Below the pieces are notes generated by a model. That model was given only the letters and a program-made list of their open reading frames with translations, was not told where the DNA came from and ran no database searches. Of a stretch of 64,000 bases of DNA, positions 11,794 to 28,367 are shown piece after piece. The stretch's first letter is position 1, and every line of letters begins with the position of its first letter. The DNA comes from Candidatus Cloacimonadales bacterium (lineage in GTDB: Bacteria > Cloacimonadota > Cloacimonadia > Cloacimonadales > JAIOQZ01). A program made the position numbers and the translations under genes. The DNA is taken from NCBI GenBank assembly GCA_963674825.1, contig OY771587.1:448001-512000 (forward strand), written 5' to 3'.

Positions 11794-14490
11794 TCAGAAA
11801 TCCTTACCGTCGTCGTCGTAACCATCGTCCAAGGGGAGAACGATTTCGATGTCGTCGGCCGCATACTTGTTTGACGGTCCCGGAAGCGCTTTCTGCCTAC
11901 CGGGAGCAGCCAGCTCTGGTTGACCTTCTTCGAATCGTCTACTCATCGCGGTATTGCTCGAATTGGTGAGCTTGAACTCGTTGACCATCGAACGAAGCTC
12001 GGAAGCTTGAGAATTCAGCTCTTCAGCAGCGCTTGCAGATTCCTCGGCGTTGGCAGCATTACCTTGCGTGACCTTGTTCAGTTCACCAACAGCAAGACTA
12101 ACCTGGCGGATACCCTTAGCCTGCTCATCGGACGATACAGATATCTCTTTTACAATGTTGTTCACCTTCGAGAAGCTTGTCTGAATATTTCCGAACGACT
12201 GGGTTACTTCATCAACAATCTTCGAACCATCTTGAGAATTCTTGAGAGAAGTCTCAATCAGTTCATCCGTGTTCTTTGCAGCTTCAGCGCTGCGAAGTGC
12301 AAGGTTCTTTACCTCTTCCGCTACTACGGCAAAGCCTTTTCCTGCCTCCCCGGCATGAGCAGCTTCCACTGCGGCATTGAGAGCCAGAAGGTTGGTCTGG
12401 AAAGCAATATCGTTGATCGTCTTGATGATGTTACTGGTCTCATGGGCGGATTGAGTAATCGCAGCCATGGCGCTCGTCATTCTTGTCATTGCAGTATTAC
12501 CCGATTCTACGTGCTTCAGCGACTCCTCGGAGAGTGTCATTCCCTGACGTGAATTCTCTGCGTTGTTTAGCGTAAGTGAATTCATCTGCTCGAGACTGGA
12601 TGCGATTTCTTCCAGCGAGCTTGCCTGCTCCGAAGATCCCGACGCAAGTGATTGGCTGCCGTTGGCGATCTCACCGGAAGCAGAAGATATCTGTTGGACC
12701 GCACGATCCACCTGGGAAAGTGCGTCTTCCAGGTTATTCCCCGCGTTGTTGATGTTCTGCGTGAAGGTATTCAGATCGCCTCTATAAGTGCCACGTACCC
12801 GGGCTGTCATGTTCTTGTTCGCAAGCTCATGCATGACCGTCATTGCTTCGTTGATTGGGTTGATGATAGCGTCCATCAGTTTATTGATTCCACCTACCAT
12901 TTCGCGCCAGGAGTTCTTGAACTTTTTCTCTTCACCACGTGCTTTCAACTGGCCATCGGTTGCGGCTCTGATTAGGGTTCCTGTTTCTTTTAATAGCGAA
13001 TCCATGATGTTGATCATCTGATTCAGATTGCTGATGATGATGTTGAAATCGCCCTGGTATTTATCCTTGATGAGTGGTGGCAAATTGCCCTCGGATATGC
13101 GTTGCAGGTAGTCCGAAGTGAGATTGATTGGGGTTACAAAGGCAACGACGAGATCGTTGATTCCCACAATGAGTTCTTTCCACGAATTCTGGAATTGATT
13201 AGCCTTACCACGCACATCCAGCTTTCCAGCCTTGATAGCTGCTATCAACACATTCGTCTCTGCAAGCAGGCCATTAATGTTGCTAATACACAGGTTCACA
13301 CTGGTTTTGATCTTGTTGAAATCACCTTTGTATTCCTCTGTGATAAGCGGCGGCATATCACCCACGGAAATCCGCTGTATAAGATTGGTTGTCGTATTGA
13401 TCGGCTTGACAAATGCATCGACGATATGATTAATTCCCGAGATCATTTCTTTCCAGGAGTTTTCGAATTTTTCTTCGTTACCACGAACTGCAAGGTTGCC
13501 GTTAGTAGCTGCGTTGATCAGACTGTCCGTTTCTTTCAAAAGTCCGTTGATGATTCTGATCAGATTGTTGACGCTATTCTTCAAAGTATCGAAGTCTCCT
13601 CGAACTTCAGCAGTAATTTCCGGCGGAATATCCCCTTTGGCAATTTTATCAAGATATTCGAGGATGATCTTTATCGGTTCATGGAAGGCAACGATGATTT
13701 CGTTCACGCCAATGCTAATGGGCCTGAACTCGGGAGCAATCATCGATGTATCAACACGTTCTTTTAGCCTGCCATTGACAACATTGTCTGAAATGTTTGC
13801 AATTCCATCGATAACACCTTTAATGGCTTTTGTTACAGTAAAGTGAATGAAGAACGAAAGCCCGATCCATGCCAGAATACCGATAACCAGAAGCACCATG
13901 AAGAGACTTTGATTACTCGTGTAAATCGCTTGAGATTCAACCTTCACCGCTTGGGCATGATCCCACTCTTTCTGACCAAGAACATCGATAACATCACGCA
14001 TCGCCTCAAACTCAACAGCCGCTTGTCCCCGGCTGAGAGCTAAGGCTTCCTGATAGCTGGTTTCAGTCCTTTTCATCAGTACATTGGGGATACTTCTTGT
14101 CAGAGGTAGCCATTTCTCGCGATTCGATTCATATTCTCGAATCAATTCATTCTCCGTGGTAAGATCGAATACTTTTTTAAATTCCTGCCACCGCTCATCA
14201 GTCTGCTGAATATTCTCTTCCATGTCGGCAACAAAATTATTAAAAGCTTCAGTACCCGGTTCTTCTTGCAGTATCGATCGCTCGGCGACCAGAACCTGCT
14301 GCAAGTCTCGATCTATTTCTGACAGTAGATGAACGGAAGGAAGTATATTCTCCACTGTCTGCTTTACATTGCCATTGAGCGTATTATTTGCTCTTATGCT
14401 GAATATTGTAATGACGAGCATAAGAGCAAAAAGAAGCGTAAGGCCAATAAATGCTTTAACGCTCGATTTCAAATTAATGAAGAAATCCAT
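11794..14490 (-). CDS. Methyl-accepting chemotaxis protein (4HB sensor, poly-HAMP, MA)
   Basis: Same signalling tip; helical periplasmic domain; three roughly 90-aa repeats (I.xG.xPPxIT..xxGDFxxxK); AGGAGG RBS before ATG at 14490. Confidence 0.93.
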
Positions 14491-14683
14491 CTTTCCTCCT
14501 GGATTGTGTTCTTTCATTTAAATCTAATCCGATATTCTGTCAGGCACAGAATAATCGTGTATTCCCGCAAAGATTATTTTAAACACAACACAGCCTTAAA
14601 TGACGATGAAGCAATATATTAGCGACAAACTGACGAACCATATTCAGCCATGAGCACCATTCAGTATAGATTGATGATTCAAT

Positions 14684-14715
14684 AAAAAAAAGCCCGGAAA
14701 GTGATTTTCCCGGGC
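14684..14715 (-). terminator. Intrinsic terminator
   Basis: GCCCGG...CCGGGC stem followed by a T-run on the minus strand. Confidence 0.7.
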
Positions 14716-14736
14716 CTTGTTTATATTCCTGATTAT

Positions 14737-17601
14737 CTAGAAATCCAGCTCTCGTTCCTCTTCCCCATGTTCTTCGTCCATGGGAAGAAGAATCTCGATT
14801 TCTCCACTCGTATATTTGTCCTTTCCTGGACCTGGTAGTGATTTGAGGCTCGGAAGCGAAGAAACCTTACTCGGCCCAACTTCGAAACGTCTGTTCATTC
14901 CAACGTTCGCCATTGACTGGCTCAGCTTGAATTCTCCAACCATCGAACGCAATTCAGCGGATTGAGAATTGAGCTCTTCCGCTGCGCTTGCAGATTCCTC
15001 TGCATTCGCAGCATTACCCTGGGTAACCTTGTTCAGTTCGCCTACAGCAACATTCACTTGGCGAATTCCCTCCGCCTGCTCATCTGATGAAACAGAGACT
15101 TCCTTCACGATGTTGTTCACCTTCGAGAAGCTGGCCTTGATATCCTCGAACGCCTTTGTTACTTCGGAAACGATACGTGCACCTTCAAGCGAGTTGCGTA
15201 ACGAGGATTCGATAAGCTCATCCGTGTTCTTTGCTGCTTCGGCACTGCGGAGCGCGAGATTTTTAACCTCCTCAGCAACCACTGCAAAACCCTTACCGGC
15301 TTCGCCGGCATGGGCAGCTTCAACTGCCGCGTTCAGCGCCAGGAGATTCGTCTGGAATGCGATATCATTGATCGTCTTGATGATATTGCTGGTCTCTTTC
15401 GCGGATTTTGCGATTGCCTCCATTGCGTTGTTCATATGAGACATGGCATCGTTACCCTTCTTGACATGTACCAGCGATTCTTCGGAAAGCGCCATGCCCT
15501 GACGAGAGTTATCCGCATTATTGAGCGTAAGAGAGTTCATTTCTTCAAGGCTTGATGCTATCTCCTCCAGCGAACTCGCCTGCTGGGAAGATCCGGAAGC
15601 AAGTGACTGGCTTCCGTTGGATATCTCACCGGCTGCTGTAGATATCTGTTGGACAGCACGATCAACTTGGGTAAGGGCATCTTCGAGGTTGTCACCAGCG
15701 TTGTTGATGTTCTGCTTGAACTCATTCAAATCGCCCTTATAACTGCCCTTCACACGCATGGTGAGGTTCTTGTTTGCCAATTCGCGCATCACATCCATTG
15801 CTTCGTTAATCGGATTGATAATCGCATCGAGCAGATTGTTGATACCTCTCATCAGCGCTTGATACTCACCTTTGTGTTTATTGGCCTGAGCGCGTGTGCT
15901 CAGCTTGCCATCCAGCGCTGCCTTGACAAGCACCTGCGCATCCTCTGTCAGAAGGCCGATTGCCTTTTTAACCTGCGCCAAACTGCTATTGATCGCCTCA
16001 AACCTGCTTCCAGTCTCATAGGTATCCTTATCTGTTGCAGCAATGCCGGTCTCGAACTGGAGGTTCCCATCCGCGAGATTTTGAAGACGATTCACCAGCT
16101 TCCCCACTTCTTCCTTCTGATAGGCAGTTATCTTATTGGAAAGCCGTTGCGCATTCTTGATATCTGTTTGATCTATGACCACTTCAAGTGCTCCATTGAT
16201 CTGACCATTACGATCACGAATAGGAACCCCCTCATATTTGATATCCAGATCCAATCCACCTGGATGCGCATCTGTCTCAGCGCTTTGCATCTGTCCCGTC
16301 TTCATGGCTCTGCTGAGAGCGCAGCGCTCGGTGTTGCAATCGCCCGTTTTGAACTGCTCATAGCATTTTTTACCCACGAGCTCACTCTGGCTCTTATTTA
16401 CAACATTAGCGCCAGTCTTGTTCATGAACTGAATATTGAACTGTTTATCGACGATCATAAAAGGACAAGGCGCACTATCGACCAGCATAACAATACGATC
16501 GATCGTATCATTAAGCCCAATGACGATATCTCTGTAACTTCCCTGATGCGCATCGGCGTTGGCACGCTCTAACAGACGACCGTCAACTGCGGCCGAAACA
16601 AGGCCTTCGACATCTGCCATCAGTTTGTTGAGAGTATCGATACATTGGTTCAGATTATCCTTTGTGACATTGAAATCACCGTGATATGTCGCCGTGATCC
16701 TTTCAGGGATATCGCCCTTCGAGATCCGCTCAATATAGTCTGCCGTCTCTTTGATTGGTTTGATGAAAGCCTCGATCAGTTCGTTTGCGTTTTCGACGAT
16801 CCCCCGAAAATCGATCGTTGTGGCATCCGGGTCACCCCGGCTATCAAGCCGACCCTGTTGTACATCGTGAGAAAGTGATGCAAATTGACGCACGATACCC
16901 TTGATCTGCCCCATGATTTTTCGAGGCAAAATCACAGAAATGAGTATGCCCAGAGCAATACCGAACGCCGACATAAAAATGATCAATATCATGGAATGAT
17001 GACTGTTCGCAACGCTCTCTTCTACCATGATATGAGTATTCCCGGTGTTTGTTTCCGTCAACTCGGTGAACGTATTACCCATTGCGTTGGATATAGGTAT
17101 CATGCGATCGATTGCTACCTGATATTGTGCATAGAGCCCTGCACGTTCCTCATCATTTGAGCTGTTCGCAAGTTGCAGTATTGTGCCGTCCAGTTCCTCA
17201 TAAACATCACGCCAGGCTTTGTACTGACCTTCAAGCTTTGCCATCAAGTCCCGCCCCTTCTGGGTTGCGCGAGGTATTTGCTTCAGCTCAGCCATGGCTG
17301 CATCCACTGCTTCCCAGCTCTTCTCCCGTTGTTTCTGAATGTTGCGAACATACGCCACGGCAGCCGACTGCTCCATTTTCTGTGAGAGCCAGACATCGAG
17401 CGTTTGCGCTCTGATGCTCATATGCTCCGTATTGAGCACGCCGATCAGTTGCATGTCTGGAATGCGATGGTGCCCGATGTTCTCCAGTTCAGTGCCAAGC
17501 ATCTCAAGCGAAGTGAAGCTCTCCAGTGAAATCGCTCCCACCACGATCAGCATGAGAATGAATACAGTGATTAAAATTGTCCCGATTGATAGTTTCTTCA
17601 T
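14737..17601 (-). CDS. Methyl-accepting chemotaxis protein (4HB sensor, HAMPs, PAS, MA)
   Basis: Same signalling tip; two TM helices; Cys-containing PAS domain. Confidence 0.93.
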
Positions 17602-17653
17602 GATTGTTCTCCCCCATCATGTAAGATACGCCATACGGCTATTAGGTGTTGCG

Positions 17654-18157
17654 TTAATGAGCCTTCTGCAGATTTTTCATCTTCAGCAGTTCCTCTTTCG
17701 AAAGGATGTTGTCCGTATCCAGAAGCGTTATAACCTTGCCTTTTACCTTTGCCATGCCCTCTACATACCGGTTTTCGATTCCGGTCCCAACAGAAGGAAG
17801 TTCATCTACCTGGTTGTTGTGAATGTCGATAACTTCCAGCACATTATCGACAATGATCCCCATTACGACTTCGCCGTCATTGATGTGGGCTTTGATGATA
17901 ATAATACTGGTTCTGTCGTCATACTCCCGTACCGGCAGTGTAAGTCGCATCCGTAAATCCATGACCGGTATGATCCTTCCACTTCGGTTGATCACACCTT
18001 TGATGTAATGCGGCGTTTGAGGAATCGGAGTGATTTCAGGAATTGCAATGATCTGGATGATGTTTTCGACGTGAATCCCGTATGGTTGCTGTTGAAGGAG
18101 AAAGGTCAAATACTTGTTGTGTTCCTGTTTAGAACCTTGTCCATATTGATTATCCAT
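17654..18157 (-). CDS. cheW: Chemotaxis coupling protein CheW
   Basis: KYLTF...YGIHV...ITPIPQTPHYIKGVINRSGRIIPVMDLR...GIIVDNVLEV. Confidence 0.93.
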   Translation of the reverse strand: MDNQYGQGSKQEHNKYLTFLLQQQPYGIHVENIIQIIAIPEITPIPQTPHYIKGVINRSGRIIPVMDLRMRLTLPVREYDDRTSIIIIKAHINDGEVVMGIIVDNVLEVIDIHNNQVDELPSVGTGIENRYVEGMAKVKGKVITLLDTDNILSKEELLKMKNLQKAH

Positions 18158-18468: not shown

Positions 18469-21400
18469 CTATTTTATGATTGAGCCTTCACCCGGAAACA
18501 GCCCGAACAGGCTATATAGAGCTCGCTCATCAACAGGATGGTCTGTGAAAATGAAGAATCGCGGTTTGTTACTGACCATCTCACCCTTTGGAAGATCGAG
18601 AAAATCGTTGAACCAAATCCCAAGCAATTCGGGATCGCCAAGCACCTCAATTTCCTTCTCTTCCGGTTGCCAAAGCACTTGCAGTGAATCCTTACGTCTC
18701 TGGTGAACGTAGCGATAACTGCGATTCGGATGGATCTCCCAGTATTCTTCGCCCCAGAAGAAGCGCTTCGTCTTACCGTAGCGATTCGTATATTCCACGC
18801 AGACATCACCCGGATCGTTGCCCGGATTGATGAAGGTAATGGTTTCCGAGTGCTGCTCGAACGCATGCCCGATAGCTTCTTGCGAATAGGTTGAGAATAC
18901 CGCCATGATCGGAACTCCCGGCAGGCTCAAGTAATACTGGCTCCAGCTCTGACCTTTCCAGGCTTCAAGCTTTTCGATGCGACAATCTATACGGATGCCG
19001 CTCCAGCGATTACCCTTTCTATCGGAGACCTCGACGAATTCCGCACCCGTTTTCTCACCGATAGCCTTGAAATGTGAGATACCTTTAGGCTGTGCATACA
19101 TACCGCCATACCAGGGATTCCACCAACTGAAGGGTCGTGCCTCCGGGAACGAGCAGCTCAGCCATTCATTGCCGTTGTTCTTCAGTGAGATCAGGCCCAG
19201 ATTGAACGCAGGCGCTGCTTCGAAACGCACCTTACCATTGTCGTATGTCCATACATCGAATCCATTCCGTTCTTCTGTCGAAGTGCGAATATCTCCATTG
19301 ACAGTGAACATGGCCAATTGCCGCTGAATGCTTTCAGTTCCGTCATTGCGTTCCAGGGATAGAACTTCGATGGAAGGTGACGCTTCGCGCTTCAACTGGA
19401 CCGATTTCAGTTGTGCGTTTTCTTCTTTCGTGACCTCGAAGGATTCATTCTCGAACGAACCATGCTCGCTTTCGAGATGAAATTTACCGCAAAGCGGAAA
19501 TGCGCGATGTTCCACGATCTCGACCTTCGCATCACCGGTGATGAACGGGTTTCCATTCTCGCATGCCAATCGGAAGCAATCGACTTCCACAAGCTCCTGT
19601 TTGTTCTTCAATTCAGGCCTGATATACGCTCTGTACGATCGCCAATCGGCAAACCGGTTCATGGATATCCACATTGGATCGAGGCGCACATTTTCCCCTG
19701 TATCGGGCATCCCGGCGCAGTACTCGAAGTTTAATTTCCAGTCGTCCGCGTTTGGGTTGTCACCGAGCCAGCGAAAACCGAAGGATGTATCGAGCTTCCG
19801 CAGATAGCACCAGTTGCCGGTTACCGCACGCATATCCATGACATTGCCGTCAACCTGGATATCATCGGACGCTGTTACGACATACTCACCAGCTTCGTAG
19901 GCGTAATTGCTTCTGGGTACCCACACACCGCTGTGTACATGGATATCCTGTTCCGGCTCGACAGGCCCGGTGTTTTCGACCTCAAACCAGCGCTTGAAGT
20001 CGCCCGTAGCAAACAACTGCACAACTTGCTTCAGCACGATGCCCTGATATCGCTCGCTCCTGTAATGCAGCGTCATCTGCACGTATCTGGCTTCCTGCTT
20101 GAATTCGCATCGATCATACTTCCGGTTGTGAAACTCCTTGTTGTATGGCTTGCCCAGCATGGGAGCCAGGAAGAAGGCCTGTCCTTTGCGGGTCACGTCA
20201 TAGAGATTCGCCTCGTTATTCTGGTACGCGATATAGTGCCAGCGATCAACTCCAATGCAGGTCGCATAGCGAGTCTCGCCATAGAACATCTGCCCCGCTA
20301 CCGGAAGAATAACATCCGACTCCCGCAGGAATTTCACTTCGCCGCCACTTTCTGGCATAGCTGTGACTGCAATCTCCGGACGATACATGCATGCTTTTTT
20401 CACAATGGCGCGAATCGAAACGGTCGTCTTTTCATCGGCATCCAGCGTGATGTCGTGTTCGGACTGCATGAGCTCGATATCTGGAGTATCTTCCAGCTTA
20501 CACAGGAAGCGCGCTTTTTCGTCATAGCCATTACGGGCGTTCAGGTAAAGCGTGATCTCCTCACCGGCATGATACAGCCTCGTCTGCGCACCAAGCCACA
20601 GATTAAGCGGATACTTCGGGAAGATTCCCAATCGGAATTCCGCCATTTTCCGATCGATCGAGATATTCGCGCAGATGTTCGGGTGAATCTTGTTATCCTG
20701 TTGAGCCGATTCGATCGCTCCAACTTTGTATTGCGCCTTCAACTCGATTTTGTCGGCTACTTCGCCACTCCAGCTGAAATCGAACTCAATGTTGCGATCG
20801 CTGACCCCGTTGACCTCCACTGTTAGCGGCGTGTTGGTCTTGTTTTCGATGACAATGCGAGCTTCGTACTTCCTGCCGAACGGCTGTTTGAATTTATCAG
20901 CCAGCAGCCTTACCGTGAATCGCTCGTTTTCCACTGCACAGAGTCCCCGGCCATGGCGTGAATAGGCCAGCTTCATGAAACGCTCGCCATGCTTCCAGTG
21001 GTAGTCGTACAGCTCAAAGGTGTTTTCTTTACGGCCATCGGGGTTGATATCGATCTCGCGCACACTGTCCGCGTACCAATCGGCCTCCATGAAGAAGTCC
21101 TTCAGCAGATCCTGCTGCATAACGTTCGGAAGAAAGTTCATCAGGTGAGTACTGCCGTCTTTATCTTCGAAGAAGAAGCCGCATTTCTTGTAGAGCGGCA
21201 TAGCTTTCGTGTTTCCTGGCCAAGTGTAGAGATCAAGCCGGCTCCAGCCCAATTCGATGGAGCGCTCCACAGCTCGTTTGACCAATACCTTGCCAACCTT
21301 CTTGCCAAACCAGTCCGGGCGACAATTCAGCATTGCGATGTACAGTGTGTTCTTGTCACCGCTGAACTCCATCAGCGAACAATAGCCAACCACATCGTCA

Positions 21401-21585
21401 TTTGCCACTGCCAGAAAGACATTGAACGCCGGTGAGGCCGATTCCATGGCAAGCACGCGCTGTTCGGTCTGGTTAAACGTCTCTCCCAGCCAGCCTTCCG
21501 AGCTTTGGTTCCACATATCAGCCACTTTCGCGGCCCATTTCGGTTCATATTCAACTATTTCGAATGGATAGTTTTCCAGTTTCAT
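18469..21585 (-). CDS. Large GNAT-family N-acetyltransferase (N-terminal GNAT plus about 850 aa of uncharacterised sequence)
   Basis: Acetyl-CoA motif LNCRPDWFGKKVGKVLV and NTKAMPLYKKCGF. Start is 21585 (GGAG RBS) or 21618. Confidence 0.8.
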   Translation of the reverse strand: MKLENYPFEIVEYEPKWAAKVADMWNQSSEGWLGETFNQTEQRVLAMESASPAFNVFLAVANDDVVGYCSLMEFSGDKNTLYIAMLNCRPDWFGKKVGKVLVKRAVERSIELGWSRLDLYTWPGNTKAMPLYKKCGFFFEDKDGSTHLMNFLPNVMQQDLLKDFFMEADWYADSVREIDINPDGRKENTFELYDYHWKHGERFMKLAYSRHGRGLCAVENERFTVRLLADKFKQPFGRKYEARIVIENKTNTPLTVEVNGVSDRNIEFDFSWSGEVADKIELKAQYKVGAIESAQQDNKIHPNICANISIDRKMAEFRLGIFPKYPLNLWLGAQTRLYHAGEEITLYLNARNGYDEKARFLCKLEDTPDIELMQSEHDITLDADEKTTVSIRAIVKKACMYRPEIAVTAMPESGGEVKFLRESDVILPVAGQMFYGETRYATCIGVDRWHYIAYQNNEANLYDVTRKGQAFFLAPMLGKPYNKEFHNRKYDRCEFKQEARYVQMTLHYRSERYQGIVLKQVVQLFATGDFKRWFEVENTGPVEPEQDIHVHSGVWVPRSNYAYEAGEYVVTASDDIQVDGNVMDMRAVTGNWCYLRKLDTSFGFRWLGDNPNADDWKLNFEYCAGMPDTGENVRLDPMWISMNRFADWRSYRAYIRPELKNKQELVEVDCFRLACENGNPFITGDAKVEIVEHRAFPLCGKFHLESEHGSFENESFEVTKEENAQLKSVQLKREASPSIEVLSLERNDGTESIQRQLAMFTVNGDIRTSTEERNGFDVWTYDNGKVRFEAAPAFNLGLISLKNNGNEWLSCSFPEARPFSWWNPWYGGMYAQPKGISHFKAIGEKTGAEFVEVSDRKGNRWSGIRIDCRIEKLEAWKGQSWSQYYLSLPGVPIMAVFSTYSQEAIGHAFEQHSETITFINPGNDPGDVCVEYTNRYGKTKRFFWGEEYWEIHPNRSYRYVHQRRKDSLQVLWQPEEKEIEVLGDPELLGIWFNDFLDLPKGEMVSNKPRFFIFTDHPVDERALYSLFGLFPGEGSIIK

Positions 21586-21676
21586 TTCAATCTCCAAAAT
21601 CTTTAACGTGTTAATCATCTATGCGTAAACGCCTCCATTCCGCGACGCCGACCGGCGTCCTGTTTCCATCCGATCT

Positions 21677-21716
21677 AAAAAGAAAAGGCTCGCAAAGAAT
21701 CGAATCTTCACGAGCC
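21677..21716 (-). terminator. Attenuator terminator in the 5' leader of the GNAT gene
   Basis: Minus-strand GGCTCGTGAAGA-ttcgat-TCTTTGCGAGCC-TTTTCTTTTT: a 12-bp stem with two G-U pairs and a U-tract, upstream of the CDS. Confidence 0.75.
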
Positions 21717-21810
21717 AAAATTTATCGTGAGCACCTAACAAGATCGATTCTTCGACAGACCAATCCCGTCAGTGCAATGCTAATCAATGTACAGACCAAG
21801 ACCGGACGGT

Positions 21811-21846
21811 TTAACTCCTACTGCCAAGGTTGAAATCGTGACTCAT
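21811..21846 (-). CDS. Putative leader peptide MSHDFNLGSRS
   Basis: AAAGGAGGAAAG-ATG followed by an 11-codon ORF and TAA, directly upstream of alternative hairpins. Confidence 0.6.
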   Translation of the reverse strand: MSHDFNLGSRS

Positions 21847-21935
21847 CTTTCCTCCTTTTTTCTTTGATGCACCAAACACTGGCTATGAGTTCATTTCTGG
21901 CAATCTTTTTTTTGTTACAAACCAGAAATATTGAA

Positions 21936-21964
21936 TTGACACCTTTGAAAACAGATTGCAAAAT
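21936..21964 (+). promoter_or_regulatory. Putative sigma70 promoter of the rhomboid cluster
   Basis: TTGACA-N17-CAAAAT about 80 bp upstream of the first rhomboid gene. Confidence 0.4.
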
Positions 21965-22046
21965 ACGGACTCGAATGCAATATAAACAGCGTATTGAAAA
22001 TGACGAGGTTCTGGACATTAACCATGCTAACTGAAACGAGGTATTG

Positions 22047-23240
22047 ATGAAGTACAATTGTCCCGCTGATGGAACTGAACTCGAACCGAAATCGAAGTAC
22101 AACGGACTGGTGCATGGCTGCTCGCATTGTGGCGGCGAAATGCTCAATATAACCATCCTGAAGAAAGACCCTGAACTGGAAGAGACAGCCCATACGATCT
22201 GGAAACTCTCCAAACCGGCATCGGATTCTGCCGGTTTCCAGTGTCCAGAATGCCATCGCGACATGAAGCGAGTCTATTATGAGGAAGCCGGTATTACCCT
22301 GCGTCTGTGCAGGCATTGTCAACTTATCTGGTTCGAGGAAGGACAGTACGACAAGCTTCCCAGGATCGATCCGGAAGTGGCCGCTCAGAACGCAGCATCC
22401 GTACTTTCCGAAAAATCGATCGAAGCGCTGCTGAAAGCGGAACGAACCATCGATGAGGAGATCAAGGAAACAATAGACTCACCGCCCCCGCCCAAGTTTA
22501 ATAACCTGTTCGAGGCGGTCTCCAACCTCCCGACTATCAACGATGACTTGGATCAGTCCGATATACCCTGGATCAGCTGGGGATTGATAACCATTTTCAC
22601 AATCGTGTTTCTATCCGCACTGAGCCATCTGGGCAAGAATGTGATGCATTTTGGCTACAGACCCACCGATCCATTCAGGATGTATGGCCTCACCATTTTC
22701 ACATCGTTCTTTCTGCAGCGAAACTTTCTCCACCTCTTTGCCGGTGTTTACTTCCTGAAACTGTTCGGCGAAAGGCTTGAGAAAAAATCCGGCTCACTTC
22801 TCGTGCTGCTCTTGCTTGCAGTAGGACACATAGCAGGGATACTGTTTCTTACGCTGTTCAACTTCGGTGACAAAGTTACCGAAATCGGCATCGGTGCAGG
22901 GCTATCGGCTCTCATCGCCTACTATGTTGTCCTTACACCAACCGAGAAGTTCAGCTTCATTCTGCTGTCCAGATTCCATAAACGTACGCCAACGCTCAAG
23001 CAAAGGCTGTTCGGAAGACCGGCAGTGTACCGGATCCCGGCATACTGGAGCCTCATTTCCTGGATCGTAATCCAGCTCTTCCTGCAATCGATTGCCAGCA
23101 TCTTTCTGGCGAAACATACAAGCTTGCTACCGGTCGTTGGCGGCACACTCGTCGGCCTCATGTGGGGATATGTTGTGCGCATCCGAAATAGTGAAGAACC
23201 CCTTGATGAAGGGAGATATCACAACATCACGATCAAGTGA
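22047..23240 (+). CDS. Zn-ribbon (zf-TFIIB-like) + rhomboid-fold membrane protein, catalytic residues absent
   Basis: N-terminal CPxD...CxxCGGEM and CPEC...CRHCQLIWF. The rhomboid region has GIGAG in place of GxSxG and SLLPVVGG in place of AHxGG. Confidence 0.8.
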   Translation: MKYNCPADGTELEPKSKYNGLVHGCSHCGGEMLNITILKKDPELEETAHTIWKLSKPASDSAGFQCPECHRDMKRVYYEEAGITLRLCRHCQLIWFEEGQYDKLPRIDPEVAAQNAASVLSEKSIEALLKAERTIDEEIKETIDSPPPPKFNNLFEAVSNLPTINDDLDQSDIPWISWGLITIFTIVFLSALSHLGKNVMHFGYRPTDPFRMYGLTIFTSFFLQRNFLHLFAGVYFLKLFGERLEKKSGSLLVLLLLAVGHIAGILFLTLFNFGDKVTEIGIGAGLSALIAYYVVLTPTEKFSFILLSRFHKRTPTLKQRLFGRPAVYRIPAYWSLISWIVIQLFLQSIASIFLAKHTSLLPVVGGTLVGLMWGYVVRIRNSEEPLDEGRYHNITIK

Positions 23241-23283
23241 TAAATATGGATTTCTGAACAATACCATGAATGGAAGAGAATAA

Positions 23284-24414
23284 ATGACGTATAAATGTCC
23301 ACGTGATGGAACCGAACTGGAAGTCGAAGTCATCCACGGCAGCAGGTTCTACACATGCTCGACTTGCGGCGGCGAGATGGTGAATTACGCAGTATTGCGA
23401 AAAGAACCGAAGCTTGCGAAAACCGCGAGGGCGATCTGGGATACATCGAAAGAAATACTGAACAACGAAGGTGTAGTATGCCCGGAATGCAACCAGCGAA
23501 TGGCTAGGGTTTATTACAAGGAAGCCGATGTAATGTTGGATCTCTGCCAGCATTGCCATCTTATCTGGTTCGATCGAGGCGAATACGAAGTGCTTCCCCG
23601 CGAAGAAATCAAGCCGGTTCAGCCAAAAGAGCTTTCGCAGAAATCGATAAAAGCTTTGCTTCAGGCGGAACGGGCAATCAATTCGGAGATTCTCGAAGCT
23701 TCCGCTACAACAGACCGACTGGAGCAAGAGTCCTACCCGACTACACAGGACGACCCTCTCGGGCAAGATATTCTGCCATGGATTACCTGGATTCTGCTCG
23801 CGGCATGCTTCGCGGCATACATTTTTGTTTTCAAAGATCCCGGTAAAAATCTCCAGCTATTCAGCTTCGACCCCGAAAATCCACTTCGCATTTACGGCCT
23901 GACCTGGATTACCTCGTTCTTTGTGCAGGAAGGTTACATCGAGCTGTTTCTTGTTCTCTTGTATCTGAACCGGTTTGGAGCGGTTACTGAAAAGGACTTC
24001 GGGCATTTGCGTCTTGTCATGTTGTTTATCGTCGGACATATCGTGGGTTTGATCCTGCTGACGGTATTCGATCTCGGTGAAAAGGGGCTTTTTACCGGCA
24101 TGATAGCAGGGCTGACAGCGGTTATGGTCCATTACATTACGGTACTGCCCAAGCAAATACTCGAGATGCCACTATTTCTCAAATACCTGGGTAGATACCT
24201 ACTCCCAGCAAATCAATTCGCAACGTATGGCTTACGTGGATACTGGGCTGTTCTCCTGTGGGCGCTGCTCCATATGTTTTTCAAGATGCTGATCGATGTA
24301 ACGACAAAAGAGCCTTACAGCCTGCTCCCGATGTTCGGCGGCGCGCTTGTCGGCTATCTGTGGGGCTTCATCGTCCGCCTGAAGCGCAGCGACAACAGCA
24401 TGAGGTACCAATGA
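23284..24414 (+). CDS. Zn-ribbon + rhomboid-fold membrane protein, catalytic residues absent
   Basis: Same architecture; GMIAG and SLLPMFGG occupy the catalytic Ser and His positions. Confidence 0.8.
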   Translation: MTYKCPRDGTELEVEVIHGSRFYTCSTCGGEMVNYAVLRKEPKLAKTARAIWDTSKEILNNEGVVCPECNQRMARVYYKEADVMLDLCQHCHLIWFDRGEYEVLPREEIKPVQPKELSQKSIKALLQAERAINSEILEASATTDRLEQESYPTTQDDPLGQDILPWITWILLAACFAAYIFVFKDPGKNLQLFSFDPENPLRIYGLTWITSFFVQEGYIELFLVLLYLNRFGAVTEKDFGHLRLVMLFIVGHIVGLILLTVFDLGEKGLFTGMIAGLTAVMVHYITVLPKQILEMPLFLKYLGRYLLPANQFATYGLRGYWAVLLWALLHMFFKMLIDVTTKEPYSLLPMFGGALVGYLWGFIVRLKRSDNSMRYQ

Positions 24415-25517
24415 GTTACTTCTGCCCGGTCGATGGAACCAAGCTGGAAGCGATGGCCTTGAATAGCAGCCAGGTGTTTCGCTGCCCTCAATGCGGTGGT
24501 GAGATGGTCAACTACGCCACGTTGCGCAAAGACCCGAAGCGATTCGACAGCATGAAAGGCCTATGGAACGCCGCGCTTCAGATAACCGAACTCAACGGCA
24601 AGACATGCCCACTATGCGAACGCCATATGACGCGCGTCCATCTGCCGAACAGCGAGTCGTACGTCGATATTTGCAAGCCATGCCAGAATATCTGGCTCGA
24701 CAAGAGCGAATACGAGCTGATACCCACAAATGAGAACGCAAAGAACGTGCCGTTCGATCTCTACGAAGGCCTTTCCGAGAAAGCCAAAGACGAATTGCTG
24801 GCAGCCCAGCTTGAGGACTACCGGCGAGACAGAAAAGAAATGGAGAGTCCCATGCCGCGCGGATGGAAGCTGATACCGGCATTTCTCGGCTTACCGACCG
24901 AGGACGAAGGGATTCAGATCAGCAAGATGCCAATCGCAACCTGGATACTGGCTTCCATTTGCGTCATCGTGTACCTGTTCACGCGCGAAAATCCCGACTA
25001 CTATTATCAAACTTGGGGATTTATTGCCAACGGCCCAGTTATACACTCCATGATCACGGTCTTCACTTCGTTTTTCCTGCACGCTGGATGGTGGCATCTG
25101 ATCGGAAATATGTATTTCCTGGTGGTTTTCGGTGATAATGTGGAGGACGAAATCGGTTCACTACGTTTCTTGATTCTTATCTTTCTGGGTAACTTTTTCG
25201 GAACAATGCTCTATGCGCTCCTAGCGCTTTCGAGCGATATCCCATCGGTGGGAGCAAGCGCAGGGATATCGGCCGTCCTGGCCTATTACGTTGTGCTTTT
25301 TCCACGTTCGTACTTGCGGTTTCTTCTGTTCCGCTTCGTACCGTTCAAAATGCAAGCCTACTGGTTTCTCGTAATCTGGCTGATCATGCAGATAATCAAT
25401 TCAAGCTACCAGATGCGCTTCGAAGGGGGAGGTGTTAACGCACTGGCGCACCTTGGCGGCGCAGCGGTGGGACTTGTTTGGGGAATCGTCATGCGAAATC
25501 AGTATTCGAGAGAGTAG
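24411..25517 (+). CDS. Zn-ribbon + rhomboid intramembrane serine protease, catalytically intact
   Basis: FLHAGWWHLIGNMYFL, FGDNVED, GASAG (Ser) and AHLGG (His). ATG at 24411 overlaps the previous stop (ATGA). Confidence 0.9.
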   Translation: MSYFCPVDGTKLEAMALNSSQVFRCPQCGGEMVNYATLRKDPKRFDSMKGLWNAALQITELNGKTCPLCERHMTRVHLPNSESYVDICKPCQNIWLDKSEYELIPTNENAKNVPFDLYEGLSEKAKDELLAAQLEDYRRDRKEMESPMPRGWKLIPAFLGLPTEDEGIQISKMPIATWILASICVIVYLFTRENPDYYYQTWGFIANGPVIHSMITVFTSFFLHAGWWHLIGNMYFLVVFGDNVEDEIGSLRFLILIFLGNFFGTMLYALLALSSDIPSVGASAGISAVLAYYVVLFPRSYLRFLLFRFVPFKMQAYWFLVIWLIMQIINSSYQMRFEGGGVNALAHLGGAAVGLVWGIVMRNQYSRE

Positions 25518-25575
25518 AATGCCACGGCTTTGATACGCTCAGTGTTATGTGAACACGCTATTCTAATGGAAAAAC

Positions 25576-25602
25576 AAAGGCAGGTCTCTCGACCTGCCTT
25601 TT
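25576..25602. terminator. Bidirectional intrinsic terminator
   Basis: AAAGGCAGGTC-tctc-GACCTGCCTTTT perfect stem between convergent genes. Confidence 0.85.
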
Positions 25603-25619
25603 ATCTAAATCGAAGATAA

Positions 25620-25838
25620 TTCCGCTAACATGACTTCTCTTCGCGAAGTCACAACGTTCGACCATTTCGTTTCTGCTATGCAGAAGCTAACGATCCACTC
25701 TCGCTATTTCGCTTCGCGAAAGGCTTTCGTTCGATGTTTTCGTTTTCGCTTCGCGAAAGCCGACGTTCCACTAACATGACTTCTCTTCGCGAAGTCACAA
25801 CGTTCGACCATTTCGTTTCTGCTACGCAGAAGCCGAAA
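25620..25838. repeat. Tandem array of six hairpin units (36/37-bp period), REP/BIME-like
   Basis: Linkers CG(T/A)TC(G/C)A at 25655, 25691, 25728, 25764 and 25801. Palindromes have GCTTCGC/GCTAYGC/TCTTCGC apices. A 63-bp direct duplication (one mismatch) spans 25625-25687 and 25771-25833. Confidence 0.85.
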
Positions 25839-28367
25839 TTATTTCATCAGCATCGCTTTTCTTGTGAAAGACTTACCGGCTGAAGTCATGCGAATCAGAT
25901 ACAATCCGCTGGCTACCGGTTTCCTTCTTGCATCTGTTCCGTCCCAAATATAGCTGTGCGCACCTGAAGTCAGATTCTCATCGACCAGTGTCGTAATCTT
26001 CTGACCACGTGTATTGTATATCTCCACGCAAGCATGGCCGGCATTCTCGAGCGAGAAGGATACGGTCGTCTCGGGGTTGAACGGATTCGGATAGCATGCG
26101 TTGAGTGCTGTAGTATAACCAGGCGCCGAAGGGTCATCGCTACCGAGGTAGTCGATATAGACTTCGGTGACAGCGGGATCTTCCACCAGCTCCATCTCGT
26201 TCCACTTCGCAGACTGGAAGTAAACGTTGGTGTAGGTGTCGCTGAGTCCACTTACAGAGCTGCTGAAATTCAGTACGATGGTTGCTTCTTCCACGTTGAT
26301 CGGGCTTGACGAACTGCACGATACATGCACGATCCCGTTATCGCCACTGTATTCGATGCTGTTGAAGCTCATCCCTGGATATTCGATCGATTCGAACGCA
26401 AGGAGGCTGGCATCGTAAGTGAACGTCCAGCTACAAGCATATACGTTATCGACATTCGCCAATGTGAAAGGTACTTCGATGTAAGAACTTCCGCTGATCG
26501 TAACATCTTCGCCAAGAATCTCTGCCGAAGCATCGAATTCACCATCGAGAACCTCGTATGGCAGCTCGGTGATCGCGCCGACAACGTATTTCAGGATCAG
26601 TGTTGCGTCCAGTGACGTAATTTCACCATCGAAGCTCGCGTCTGCAATGACCATCTGAATTTCATCGAAATCAACCTGGCCCGTGAGATATTGCAGGATC
26701 AGAGAAGCATCCCAGGCCTGTACATCACCATTCATATCCACATCGCCGAACATGTCTTCCAGCCCAACCAGGATACGTCCTGGATGCGAAACAACCGGAA
26801 CGATACCGGTATTCACTGTTACCGGACCAAATGTCACATCTACGACATTCAGTTCGGGGGTAGACGGGATATCGAACACTATATTCGCCAGCAGGCCTTC
26901 GCCATTGATCGGTGTTGAGCCTGCGCACGCGATATAAAGGTCATCGCCTTCAAGATTCCATTCGGTTATCCAGTTGTTTGCATCCGGCATCGAGTCAGTA
27001 AACATCACATCCACCGGTGTTGCTTCTGTGCCAAAGCCGTTTACAACGATCTCAAAAGCCTGAATGTTCAACTCATCCGGAATAACACAGGTAATCGGAA
27101 CCGTTGCTGTAGAGCCTGCATCGGCAAACACCTGTCCTGCGTAGATATCGACCACAACATCATCTTCTTCCGGCTGGAATTCATAGCAGCCCATATCGAT
27201 ACCGACCACGCTGTCCAAATTGCCATCGACGAAGCGAGGATTACCCAGCAAATCCAGTTCGCAGAACGGATAGCCGATGTTCTCGTCGCTTCCGGCATCG
27301 ATGCAGGGAGAGTCTGAGCTCAGAGTAAATACGAAGTCCGTCGGTGCGACGAACATCGGATCCTCGGAGATACAACCAGTCCCAGCTGAACAGCCATAGT
27401 AGTTACCGGCAGTGTTGTTCCAGACGTCGTTATTATTAATCTGTAAGGCGTTTGTCGTACTGTAAATGCCATAATCGTCGTTGCTAGCCACAATGTTATT
27501 GTAGATAATGGGGTTACTATAGACCACACCGATACCGCCACCTGTGGGGGCATAGTGGGTTGATGAATTATTGACGATGATATTGTTCCTGATTACGGGA
27601 GCATTACTGCAGAGGCAGTAAACACCACCACCATGATCATCTGTTGTGTTTCCATAGAAGAGGTTGTTTTCTACCAACGCATCTGAGTAATAAATGGTAA
27701 TACCACCACCACCACCCATATAATCATGCCACGCTTCATTGTAGCGAATGATATTGTTGCGAACAATCGGGTAATCTCCAGGAGTATTTTGCGTGTGGTG
27801 TAAGCCAATTGCACCGCCTCCTGCAAAGTCTGTCGCGTCTGCTACGTTATATTCAAGAAGACAGTTCTCGATGATACCGTCTGCTCCATCGTTAAAAAAA
27901 ATCGCACCACCACACCCTCTGGCAGCATTCCCTGTACCGGCAATACAATGCCGAATGATACAGTTTCGGACGATAATTGATCCAGCCGTACAGAAGATAC
28001 CACCACCGTGTCTTCCTGCATTTCCATTCTCAATTGTAAAGCCTTCGATCACATCATCACGAGTCTGATTCGAATAGTTAAAATAGAAAGCCCGTCCCTG
28101 GTCTTCGCAATCGATGATACAGTTTTCTGGACCATTCTGAGACCTTACGATAAGGTGCTTTACAGCTCCATCCCAGCCCATTTCACGATTCGATTCACCA
28201 GTGTAGATTCCATCAAGAACAACAATTTCATCGCCATCGGACGCTTGAGCAATCGCTTCTGAAATCGATGTGAAGTCTCCTGTACCATTGACATCGACTA
28301 AGATCGTTTCAGCATATGCCCAGCTGCACAATAGCATGATGATCGTGAGGAAAAACGTTCGTTTCAT
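25839..28367 (-). CDS. Secreted protein: parallel beta-helix + cohesin-like + dockerin-like + cohesin-like + FlgD-Ig/T9SS-type CTD
   Basis: Signal peptide; GGGI..N beta-helix repeats; SPCIDAG...DMGCYE; duplicated GDVDMNGDVQAWDASLIL/ADASFDGEITSLDATLIL; C-terminal YPNPFNP...KAMLMK. Confidence 0.8.
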   Translation of the reverse strand: MKRTFFLTIIMLLCSWAYAETILVDVNGTGDFTSISEAIAQASDGDEIVVLDGIYTGESNREMGWDGAVKHLIVRSQNGPENCIIDCEDQGRAFYFNYSNQTRDDVIEGFTIENGNAGRHGGGIFCTAGSIIVRNCIIRHCIAGTGNAARGCGGAIFFNDGADGIIENCLLEYNVADATDFAGGGAIGLHHTQNTPGDYPIVRNNIIRYNEAWHDYMGGGGGITIYYSDALVENNLFYGNTTDDHGGGVYCLCSNAPVIRNNIIVNNSSTHYAPTGGGIGVVYSNPIIYNNIVASNDDYGIYSTTNALQINNNDVWNNTAGNYYGCSAGTGCISEDPMFVAPTDFVFTLSSDSPCIDAGSDENIGYPFCELDLLGNPRFVDGNLDSVVGIDMGCYEFQPEEDDVVVDIYAGQVFADAGSTATVPITCVIPDELNIQAFEIVVNGFGTEATPVDVMFTDSMPDANNWITEWNLEGDDLYIACAGSTPINGEGLLANIVFDIPSTPELNVVDVTFGPVTVNTGIVPVVSHPGRILVGLEDMFGDVDMNGDVQAWDASLILQYLTGQVDFDEIQMVIADASFDGEITSLDATLILKYVVGAITELPYEVLDGEFDASAEILGEDVTISGSSYIEVPFTLANVDNVYACSWTFTYDASLLAFESIEYPGMSFNSIEYSGDNGIVHVSCSSSSPINVEEATIVLNFSSSVSGLSDTYTNVYFQSAKWNEMELVEDPAVTEVYIDYLGSDDPSAPGYTTALNACYPNPFNPETTVSFSLENAGHACVEIYNTRGQKITTLVDENLTSGAHSYIWDGTDARRKPVASGLYLIRMTSAGKSFTRKAMLMK

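What the first reader, a model, noticed from the sequence alone, without database searches (positions are those of the whole stretch)
22047..25517. Operon of two catalytically dead rhomboid pseudoproteases plus one active rhomboid, each with a double Zn-ribbon
Seen: three tandem paralogs share a two-Zn-ribbon N-terminus and a rhomboid membrane domain. Copy 3 has the full catalytic set (HxxxxHxxxN, GASAG at 25251, AHLGG at 25446). Copies 1 and 2 have lost both the Ser (GIGAG at 22887, GMIAG at 24097) and the His (SLLPVVGG, SLLPMFGG). They share the derived SLLP and TSFFxQ motifs, keep their Zn ligands, have no stops or frameshifts, and copy 2 is ATGA-coupled to copy 3. Known: rhomboids need a Ser-His dyad, and eukaryotic iRhoms/Derlins are dead rhomboids with adaptor or regulatory roles. 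Inference: a single inactivation followed by duplication and long retention points to functional bacterial pseudoproteases, acting as substrate adaptors or regulators of the active enzyme.
Basis: partly seen in the sequence, partly recalled or inferred. Interest (0 to 1): 0.8.

Follow-up and report, generated by a model that had tools for sequence, protein, structure and literature searches.

The report
Bacterial dead rhomboids beside active one
This bacterium keeps two intact copies of a membrane protease that have lost their cutting residues right in front of a working copy; natural selection preserves them, so they look like bacterial counterparts of the non-cutting rhomboids that regulate membrane proteins in animals and yeast.

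Summary
Confirmed. Three tandem paralogs (R1 22047-23240, R2 23284-24414, R3 24411-25517) each carry two zf-TFIIB ribbons and a six-helix rhomboid domain, and are the genome's only rhomboids. R3 has the Ser-His dyad. R1 and R2 lack it, and no replacement is conserved, yet R1 keeps the GlpG fold (Z 18.2). They are not decaying: another species of the genus has the same dead-then-active pair, 57% and 58% identical, dN/dS 0.25 and 0.18. The family (985 representatives at E<=1e-30) has switched state at least 10 times on a 69-row tree. A second dead-then-active pair occurs in two Lentisphaeria (dN/dS 0.09). It carries the iRhom-like GPx motif and probably, but not provably, arose independently. 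Three near-complete relatives keep only dead copies, so dependence on an active partner is not general. Best reading: selected bacterial rhomboid pseudoproteases that bind membrane clients without cutting them. Expression, binding and clients are untested. No natural bacterial example was found in the literature searches, but three key reviews were not available.

The parts
21936..21964 (+). Possible sigma-70-type promoter in the 428-nt gap between the divergent GNAT gene and R1
   Evidence: TTGACA-17-CAAAAT, 10 of 12; 5 sites found against 5.1 expected by chance, so weak
22047..23240 (+). R1 (P0001, 397 aa): double zf-TFIIB ribbon, linker and six-helix rhomboid domain; catalytic Ser->Gly, His->Val, Asn->Gly; pseudoprotease
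   Evidence: AlphaFold model pLDDT 89.2; GlpG fold Z 18.2, rmsd 2.6; GAGGT before the ATG
22059..22319 (+). R1 double zinc ribbon (C5-D8/C25-C28 and C66-C69/C88-C91); cytoplasmic by rhomboid topology (inferred)
   Evidence: Pfam PF13453; ligand positions kept in R1, R2 and R3; metal binding not tested
22887..22901 (+). R1 GIGAG, in place of the catalytic GxSxG
22947..23039 (+). R1 loop between TM4 and TM5: beta-hairpin with a basic insertion, the best-conserved stretch between R1 and its dead ortholog
   Evidence: 26 of 35 identical (74%) against 57% overall; 43-residue span, net charge +7; E301-308, H317-322, E324-331 in the model
23121..23144 (+). R1 SLLPVVGG: start of TM6 with Pro-Val in place of Ala-His
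23284..24414 (+). R2 (P0002, 376 aa): same architecture; Ser->Ile, His->Met, Asn->Val, both auxiliary His lost; pseudoprotease
   Evidence: GMIAG at 24097, SLLPMFGG at 24319
24411..25517 (+). R3 (P0003, 368 aa): same architecture with the full catalytic set H224, H229, N233, S283, H347; predicted active rhomboid; ATGA overlap with R2
   Evidence: model pLDDT 92.6
25576..25601 (.). 11-bp hairpin after R3, between the operon and the convergent 842-aa gene; candidate terminator
   Evidence: listed on the - strand; 10 sites found against 4.5 expected

Best explanation
R1 and R2 are functional rhomboid pseudoproteases. An ancestral double-zinc-ribbon rhomboid was duplicated, one copy lost the catalytic residues in a burst of change, was duplicated again before the species of this genus split, and has since been held by purifying selection (shown, as far as sequence can show). 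Most likely mechanism (inferred): the dead six-helix core still recognises transmembrane helices of client proteins but cannot cut them. It holds or escorts them, while the cytoplasmic zinc ribbons and the conserved basic TM4-TM5 loop recruit a partner or sense a signal. The client then goes to a cutting enzyme: the co-transcribed R3 here, or FtsH, as the catalytically dead YqgP mutant does in Bacillus subtilis. The role does not need an active rhomboid in the same cell, because some relatives keep only dead copies.
For: Selective loss: R1 and its G003 ortholog keep 23 of 29 and 25 of 29 conserved non-catalytic membrane positions (R3: 25 of 29) but 1 of 6 catalytic-site positions; R2 keeps 20 of 29 and 0 of 6. 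The fold is kept. Selection: dN/dS 0.25 [0.17-0.33] for R1 vs G003 dead, 0.18 for the active pair and 0.14 for the neighbouring GNAT gene; ML omega 0.16 for the four dead genes and 0.056 for three active ones. Neutral drift over the same distance left 0 of 2000 simulated copies without a stop and 12% identity, against 57% observed. Stem branch 0.67, then end branches 0.32/0.37 like the active pair's 0.33/0.34. Membrane regions are as conserved as the ribbons in R1 vs G003 dead (0.52-0.74 against 0.61). Dead-only genomes exist, and their dead copies are under selection too (omega 0.10 for one pair; 0.07 for six genes). FtsH peptidase domain found in 5 of 5 genomes tested. Precedent: YqgP acts as an FtsH adaptor independently of catalysis and has a metal-binding N-terminal domain (PMC7231995, abstract and passages).
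Against: No client, partner or phenotype is known. No neighbour gene is shared widely across the family (largest non-family neighbour clusters in 9 and 6 of 80 loci). FtsH is near-universal in bacteria (10 of 10 bacterial controls) and is not linked to the locus, so its presence says little. YqgP's adaptor role needs an unoccupied active site, whereas R2 (Ile, Met) and G003 dead (Asp, Met) have bulkier side chains there. Dead copies are less constrained than active ones (omega 0.16 against 0.056), dS is near saturation in the home genus (1.4-3.2), and G003 lacks R2 while G001 lacks both dead genes, so they are dispensable. Expression is not shown.
Confidence: 0.5

Rival explanations
1. The tandem dead copies are dedicated partners of the active paralog: made with it from one transcript, they bind R3 (or compete for its substrates) and switch its activity or specificity.
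For: Dead-then-active order with close or overlapping junctions in G000 (ATGA), G003 (1 nt gap) and two Lentisphaeria genomes, G232 and G470. The ML tree places the Lentisphaeria dead genes apart from R1/R2, and R1/R2 share the derived CPxD knuckle with R3 while the Lentisphaeria genes do not. All five tandem dead proteins whose loop is complete have a long TM4-TM5 loop (39-48 residues). Loops this long occur in 4 of 152 active rows and in 0 of the 17 other dead rows with a complete loop (26-32).
Against: Tandem position is also what gene duplication leaves behind. The tandem is rare: 1 of 80 loci, 2 of 301 genomes of that class among the listed matches, 0 of 116 in another class. The AU test does not reject one origin for both sets of tandem dead genes (p 0.195). 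The active G001 protein also has a 40-residue loop, so in this genus the long loop may be inherited. Dead-only genomes show that dead members can persist without a partner.
Confidence: 0.22
2. The double zinc ribbon is the working part. The dead rhomboid body is only a membrane anchor or scaffold for it and binds no client.
For: The ribbon Cys are kept in every dead member examined. The same ribbons occur on 165-245 aa proteins with only one or two membrane helices, in Cloacimonadota, in Lentisphaeria, and two genes upstream of the G232/G470 pair. G007 (one contig, 98%) has such a protein and no rhomboid domain. The dead paralogs of G018/G036 keep only 8-12 of 26-29 conserved membrane positions.
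Against: In R1 vs G003 dead the membrane part and the TM4-TM5 loop are as conserved as or more conserved than the ribbons. In G232 vs G470 TM4 is 22 of 22 identical and the loop 39 of 40. A mere anchor would not need six conserved helices.
Confidence: 0.18
3. R1 and R2 are still proteases or other hydrolases, with repositioned or different catalytic residues.
For: R1 keeps H229 and has a His at 357 and a Ser at 359 near the start of TM6.
Against: Neither His is conserved in the dead orthologs (Y/E/Q at 229; the residue at the Ser position is G, D or I). S359 is the family consensus and is present in active members too. Atomic coordinates of the model were not available, so geometry was not measured.
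Confidence: 0.04
4. They are recent, decaying duplicates (pseudogenes in the making).
For: Patchy presence within the genus, and omega higher than in the active copies.
Against: Open frames over dS 1.4 and more, dN/dS 0.09-0.25, and ortholog identity equal to that of the active pair.
Confidence: 0.03

Closest known systems
iRhom1/iRhom2 (metazoan rhomboid pseudoproteases)
   Same: Rhomboid fold without the Ser-His dyad (R1 model vs iRhom1 Z 16.6, iRhom2 Z 15.2). The GPx signature (PMC6451368 passage) recurs in the family: Pro before the Ser position in 7 of 23 dead rows against 1 of 152 active rows.
   Different: R1/R2 themselves have GIG/GMI, not GPx; six helices, not seven; no iRhom homology domain; zinc ribbons instead of the long tail; they arose within a bacterial family.
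Bacillus subtilis YqgP as FtsH adaptor (PMC7231995)
   Same: Bacterial rhomboid with a cytoplasmic metal-binding N-terminal domain and a role that does not need catalysis.
   Different: YqgP is a naturally active enzyme and its dead form is an engineered mutant. R1/R2 are naturally dead separate genes with an unrelated N-terminal domain, and no FtsH link is shown.
Derlins (Der1, Dfm1, Derlin-1)
   Same: Six-helix dead rhomboid fold used in membrane protein quality control; R1 model vs Der1 Z 7.8, Derlin-1 Z 5.8.
   Different: Much weaker match than to GlpG (Z 18.2); no DER1 Pfam hit at E<=0.1; eukaryotic.
Bacterial Rhomboid + Zn_ribbon_TFIIB family (PF01694 + PF13453), automatically annotated, no study found
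   Same: R1-R3 are members: Atlas cluster of 2,683 proteins at 0.95; 985 representatives at E<=1e-30; Planctomycetota, Lentisphaerota, Verrucomicrobiota and others.
   Different: Most members are single and have the dyad (135 of 143 non-seed top hits). Databases label a dead member 'rhomboid family intramembrane serine protease'.
E. coli / H. influenzae GlpG
   Same: Same fold (TM-score 0.73 by target length, E 4e-5); the family profile aligns its GxSG and AHxxG to the positions used here.
   Different: Different N-terminal domain; R1/R2 lack the dyad; longer TM4-TM5 hairpin.

Membership tests
Rhomboid superfamily (PF01694) | Profile match above the curated cut-off | tested here: met
   R1 34.6, R2 27.2, R3 105.1 bits; cut-off 22.6
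Rhomboid superfamily (PF01694) | Six-helix rhomboid fold | tested here: met
   R1 model: six membrane helices, GlpG Z 18.2, rmsd 2.6 over 154 residues; R3 model has the same elements; R2 was not modelled
Active rhomboid protease | Ser in GxSx of TM4 and His in TM6, for R3 | tested here: met
   S283 and H347, plus H224, H229, N233
Active rhomboid protease | Ser in GxSx of TM4 and His in TM6, for R1 and R2 | tested here: not met
   G/V in R1, I/M in R2, D/M in the G003 ortholog; no conserved substitute
Active rhomboid protease | Measured intramembrane cleavage | not testable with these tools
   Needs an assay; B. subtilis YdcA has all hallmarks yet no detected activity (PMC7231995 passage), so R3 is only predicted active
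iRhom | GPx in place of GxS | tested here: not met
   R1 GIG, R2 GMI; met in the Lentisphaeria dead proteins (GPG) and in G018a/G036a (GPD)
iRhom | Seven membrane helices | tested here: not met
   Six in the R1 model; definition from PMC6451368
iRhom | Cysteine-rich iRhom homology domain between TM1 and TM2 | tested here: not met
   Loop 1 is about 25 residues without Cys
Derlin | Sequence membership (Pfam DER1) | tested here: not met
   No DER1 hit at E<=0.1 for R1, R2 or R3
Rhombosortase (TIGR03902) | Model score above cut-off | tested here: not met
   R3 27.2 bits against 84; no hit for R1 or R2
Pseudoenzyme (functional, catalytically dead homolog) | Intact gene under purifying selection | tested here: met
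   dN/dS 0.25 (R1 pair), 0.21 (R2 vs truncated G002 gene, dS near saturation), 0.09 (Lentisphaeria pair); ML omega 0.16
Pseudoenzyme (functional, catalytically dead homolog) | Expressed, with a demonstrated non-catalytic role | not testable with these tools
YqgP-type FtsH adaptor | FtsH present in the cell | tested here: met
   PF01434 in 5 of 5 genomes; near-universal, so weak
YqgP-type FtsH adaptor | Binds FtsH and presents a client; open active-site cavity | not testable with these tools
   No coordinates or binding data; R2 and G003 dead have bulkier residues at the dyad positions

The most novel reading that the evidence does not exclude
One bacterial family, the double-zinc-ribbon rhomboids, has repeatedly produced iRhom-like pseudoproteases, several times through the same Pro-before-Ser change that marks animal iRhoms. 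In two phyla it has independently built a dead-then-active operon in which the dead protein, through an enlarged cytoplasmic loop, controls or feeds its active sibling: a bacterial pseudoprotease-protease module.
Probability: 0.25. Interest if true: 0.85.

Novelty: new variant of a known kind. Interest (0 to 1): 0.66.

Why it matters
Rhomboid pseudoproteases (iRhoms, Derlins) are described from eukaryotes. How a protease becomes a non-cutting regulator is an open question, and the bacterial evidence found here rests on an engineered dead mutant of YqgP (PMC7231995). This family offers natural dead and active siblings side by side, at 30-34% identity, in many separate lineages and at different stages (Ser only, His only, both, whole site remodelled). 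It allows a direct test of what a rhomboid core does without catalysis, whether a dead paralog controls an active one, and why Pro recurs before the Ser position. It also shows that automatic annotation labels dead bacterial rhomboids as proteases.

Tried and rejected
Complex prediction of R3 with R1 (alignments of 121 and 132 rows): 'no answer', score 0.00 in two runs, mark 0.32; it says nothing for or against binding. RNA runs: no RNA holder listed. A third DNA run (X3) held only patchy pieces identical over the genes, so no strain variants were available for pN/pS. The word-indexed protein search returned only R1 itself, with the single protein and with a three-row alignment. Two metagenome scans found no relative (158 and 119 pattern matches, none confirmed), so the context of P0008, P0013, P0050, P0126, P0142 and P0143 is unknown. 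R3 alone found nothing in the PDB by phmmer; the profile did. The wide fold search barely tested the N-terminal domain; its only sequence match is PDB 8yoz, a zinc-finger protein for which no paper was found. Neighbour analysis gave no widely shared partner gene. Earlier scan findings: nothing in three look-ups. Literature: 0 papers for 'rhomboid'+'zf-TFIIB', for the four-term zinc-ribbon search, for '8YOZ' and for 'zf-TFIIB'+'bacterial'. Searches listed 25 of 41, 12 of 33, 3, 1 and 2 papers, none on a naturally dead bacterial rhomboid by title or abstract start. Three reviews (Koonin 2003, Kinch and Grishin 2013, Adrain and Cavadas 2020) were not held and may mention such proteins. No supplementary files were read. 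Rejected: sequencing artefact, pseudogenes, iRhom or Derlin membership, rhombosortase, 'SLLP' as wholly derived.
Full report
1. Observation. The window is part of a single-contig genome, 99.6% complete, whose relatives are named Candidatus Cloacimonadota. Three + strand ORFs follow each other: R1 22047-23240 (397 aa), R2 23284-24414 (376 aa), R3 24411-25517 (368 aa). Each passes Pfam's cut-offs for Rhomboid and for two Zn_ribbon_TFIIB stretches. They are 30-39% identical to each other and are the only rhomboids found in the genome by tblastn, Pfam and family profiles. The unit lies between a divergent GNAT-domain gene and a convergent 842-aa gene and ends in a hairpin. A short-read contig agrees letter for letter over 21700-25654 (probably the same sample).

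2. The dead state is real. In a 175-row family alignment (152 rows with Ser and His, 23 without), R3 has all six catalytic-site residues, R1 one and R2 none. R1 keeps 23 of 29 and R2 20 of 29 conserved non-catalytic membrane positions (R3: 25 of 29), and both keep all ribbon ligands. The family profile aligns GlpG's GxSG and AHxxG to these same positions. The R1 model (pLDDT 89.2) matches GlpG best (Foldseek E 4e-5; Z 18.2, rmsd 2.6). No His or Ser that could form another dyad is shared by R1, R2 and the G003 ortholog. I could not inspect atomic coordinates.

3. They are conserved and selected. Of the three other genomes of the genus, G003 has a dead R1 ortholog (57%) 1 nt before an active R3 ortholog (58-59%), after the same GNAT gene. 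G002 has a dead-type gene at that place, cut by the contig end before TM4, so its dyad is not seen. G001 has one active gene elsewhere. Nei-Gojobori dN/dS is 0.25 [0.17-0.33] for the R1 pair (dS 1.4), 0.18 for the R3 pair (dS 2.0) and 0.14 for GNAT. ML omega is 0.16 for the four dead genes, 0.056 for three active ones and 0.11 for GNAT. Neutral simulation at the same distance left 0 of 2000 copies open and 12% identity. On a 69-row tree (all 23 dead rows and 46 of the active ones), the four dead genes form one clade (SH-aLRT 100) with a 0.67 stem, inside a group with R3, G003 active and G001 (93). R1 pairs with G003 dead (98) and R2 with G002 dead (84), so the second duplication predates these species. 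After the stem, R1 and its ortholog changed no faster than R3 and its ortholog (0.32/0.37 against 0.33/0.34). The most conserved stretch of the R1 lineage is a basic insertion in the TM4-TM5 loop (26 of 35 identical), which is cytoplasmic by standard rhomboid topology (recalled).

4. The family loses catalysis often. A profile search found 985 representatives at E<=1e-30. Of the 143 non-seed proteins among the best 150, 8 lack Ser, His or both; three of these are named from Planctomycetes, Zixibacteria and Acidobacteria. The tree needs at least 10 changes of state (direction not inferred, though loss is the natural reading). In the phylum search (232 genomes, 32 with a match) 12 genomes had full-length or nearly full-length members: both states in G000 and G003; active only in G001, G004, G171, G190 and G197; dead only in G006, G018, G036 and G141 (72% complete); G002 cut off. 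Two further partial hits (G143, G146) were not classified. In G006, G018 and G036 (98-99% complete) neither Pfam nor an active-member profile found an active rhomboid. G018 and G036 each hold three dispersed dead paralogs under selection (omega 0.07).

5. A second dead-then-active pair. Among the best 80 of 461 genome loci found with an active-biased pattern, one (L143, Victivallales, G232) has a dead 399-aa gene (GPGAA, His->Gln) abutting the active gene, and a ribbon-plus-one-helix gene further upstream. Three other loci had a lone dead gene. In 301 genomes of that class the pair was seen in G232 and G470 only (45 weaker matches were not listed; 66 loci fetched: 56 active rows, 3 dead rows representing 2 genes, 12 short forms). 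Between these two, dS is 0.36, and dN/dS is 0.094 [0.06-0.14] for the dead gene and 0.061 for the active one: the cleanest selection signal obtained. In 116 genomes of another class, 20 of 21 matches had the dyad and none was in tandem. The ML tree separates the two tandems and their motifs differ (CPxD against CPxC, GIG/GMI against GPG), but the AU test does not reject a common origin (p 0.195, long branch). All five tandem dead proteins with a complete loop have a long TM4-TM5 loop (39-48 residues). This length occurs in 4 of 152 active rows, one of them G001, and in 0 of 17 other dead rows. Pro before the Ser position, the iRhom signature (PMC6451368, passage), occurs in 7 of 23 dead rows from at least three lineages and in 1 of 152 active rows, but not in R1 or R2.

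6. How it most likely works. Shown: intact dead genes, kept fold, purifying selection, tight gene spacing, repeated occurrence. Inferred: a non-catalytic role. [quoted passage not shown] I put 0.5 on R1/R2 being client binders that hold or hand over membrane proteins, to R3 or to FtsH (present in 5 of 5 genomes, but near-universal). I put 0.22 on dedicated control of R3, 0.18 on the ribbons being the working part with the core as anchor (short ribbon-plus-anchor proteins exist), 0.04 on hidden catalysis and 0.03 on decay. Against the best reading: no client is known, YqgP needs an open active site while R2 has bulkier residues there, and the dead genes are dispensable within the genus.

7. Known versus new. 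R1 and R2 are rhomboid-superfamily members and meet the sequence criteria of pseudoenzymes. They fail the defining features of iRhoms and have no Derlin profile match, so they may work like these proteins but are not members. The architecture is already in Pfam-annotated clusters, labelled automatically as proteases. Nine literature searches showed no report of a naturally dead bacterial rhomboid or of this family. A 2025 review (PMC12615303, passages) gave only eukaryotic pseudoproteases in the passages shown, and a 2026 paper calls regulatory roles of inactive rhomboids in bacteria 'plausible' (PMC12944812, passages). Three older reviews could not be read and may note inactive bacterial homologs, so the claim of novelty is limited to the selection evidence, the recurrence, the operon pairing and the GPx convergence.

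8. Verdict. A real feature and a new variant of a known kind; interest 0.66. The finding holds up and is broader than first thought, but the mechanism is inferred and binding and expression are open.

Noticed in passing
window 25616-25850: Intergenic repeat after R3 with internal direct copies; 41 blastn hits in the genome and contig depth up to about 25 times the unique level. Looks like a REP-type element.
   Followed up: partly
L266 (G007:C1:1772342-1775936): Tandem array of about six 190-245 aa ORFs, each with two or more zf-TFIIB-like ribbons and mostly a short C-terminal hydrophobic stretch, in a genome with no rhomboid domain.
   Followed up: partly
L072:5000-5662, L073:4941-5603, L229-L237, L143:635-1366: Widespread short proteins with the same double zinc ribbon and only one or two membrane helices; their function is unknown.
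   Followed up: partly
L108:2876-3472: A soluble zf-TFIIB protein lies directly upstream of an active double-ribbon rhomboid in a Victivallales genome.
   Followed up: no
ESM Atlas: A 76-member cluster of 392-aa proteins with PF13453 but no Rhomboid hit scores 0.92-0.93 to R1 and to a G036 dead protein, and a 102-member cluster 0.90 to the latter; they may be further, more eroded dead members.
   Followed up: no
window 18469-21618 (-): 1049-aa protein with only an N-terminal GNAT domain recognised; 71-73% identical and adjacent to the rhomboid genes in G002 and G003.
   Followed up: partly
window 11794-18157 (-): Large methyl-accepting chemotaxis-like proteins and a CheW-like gene upstream of the GNAT gene (read from the translations; family names recalled, not scanned).
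   Followed up: no
window 25839-28367 (-): 842-aa secreted protein with cohesin, dockerin and C-terminal sorting domains, convergent on the operon.
   Followed up: no
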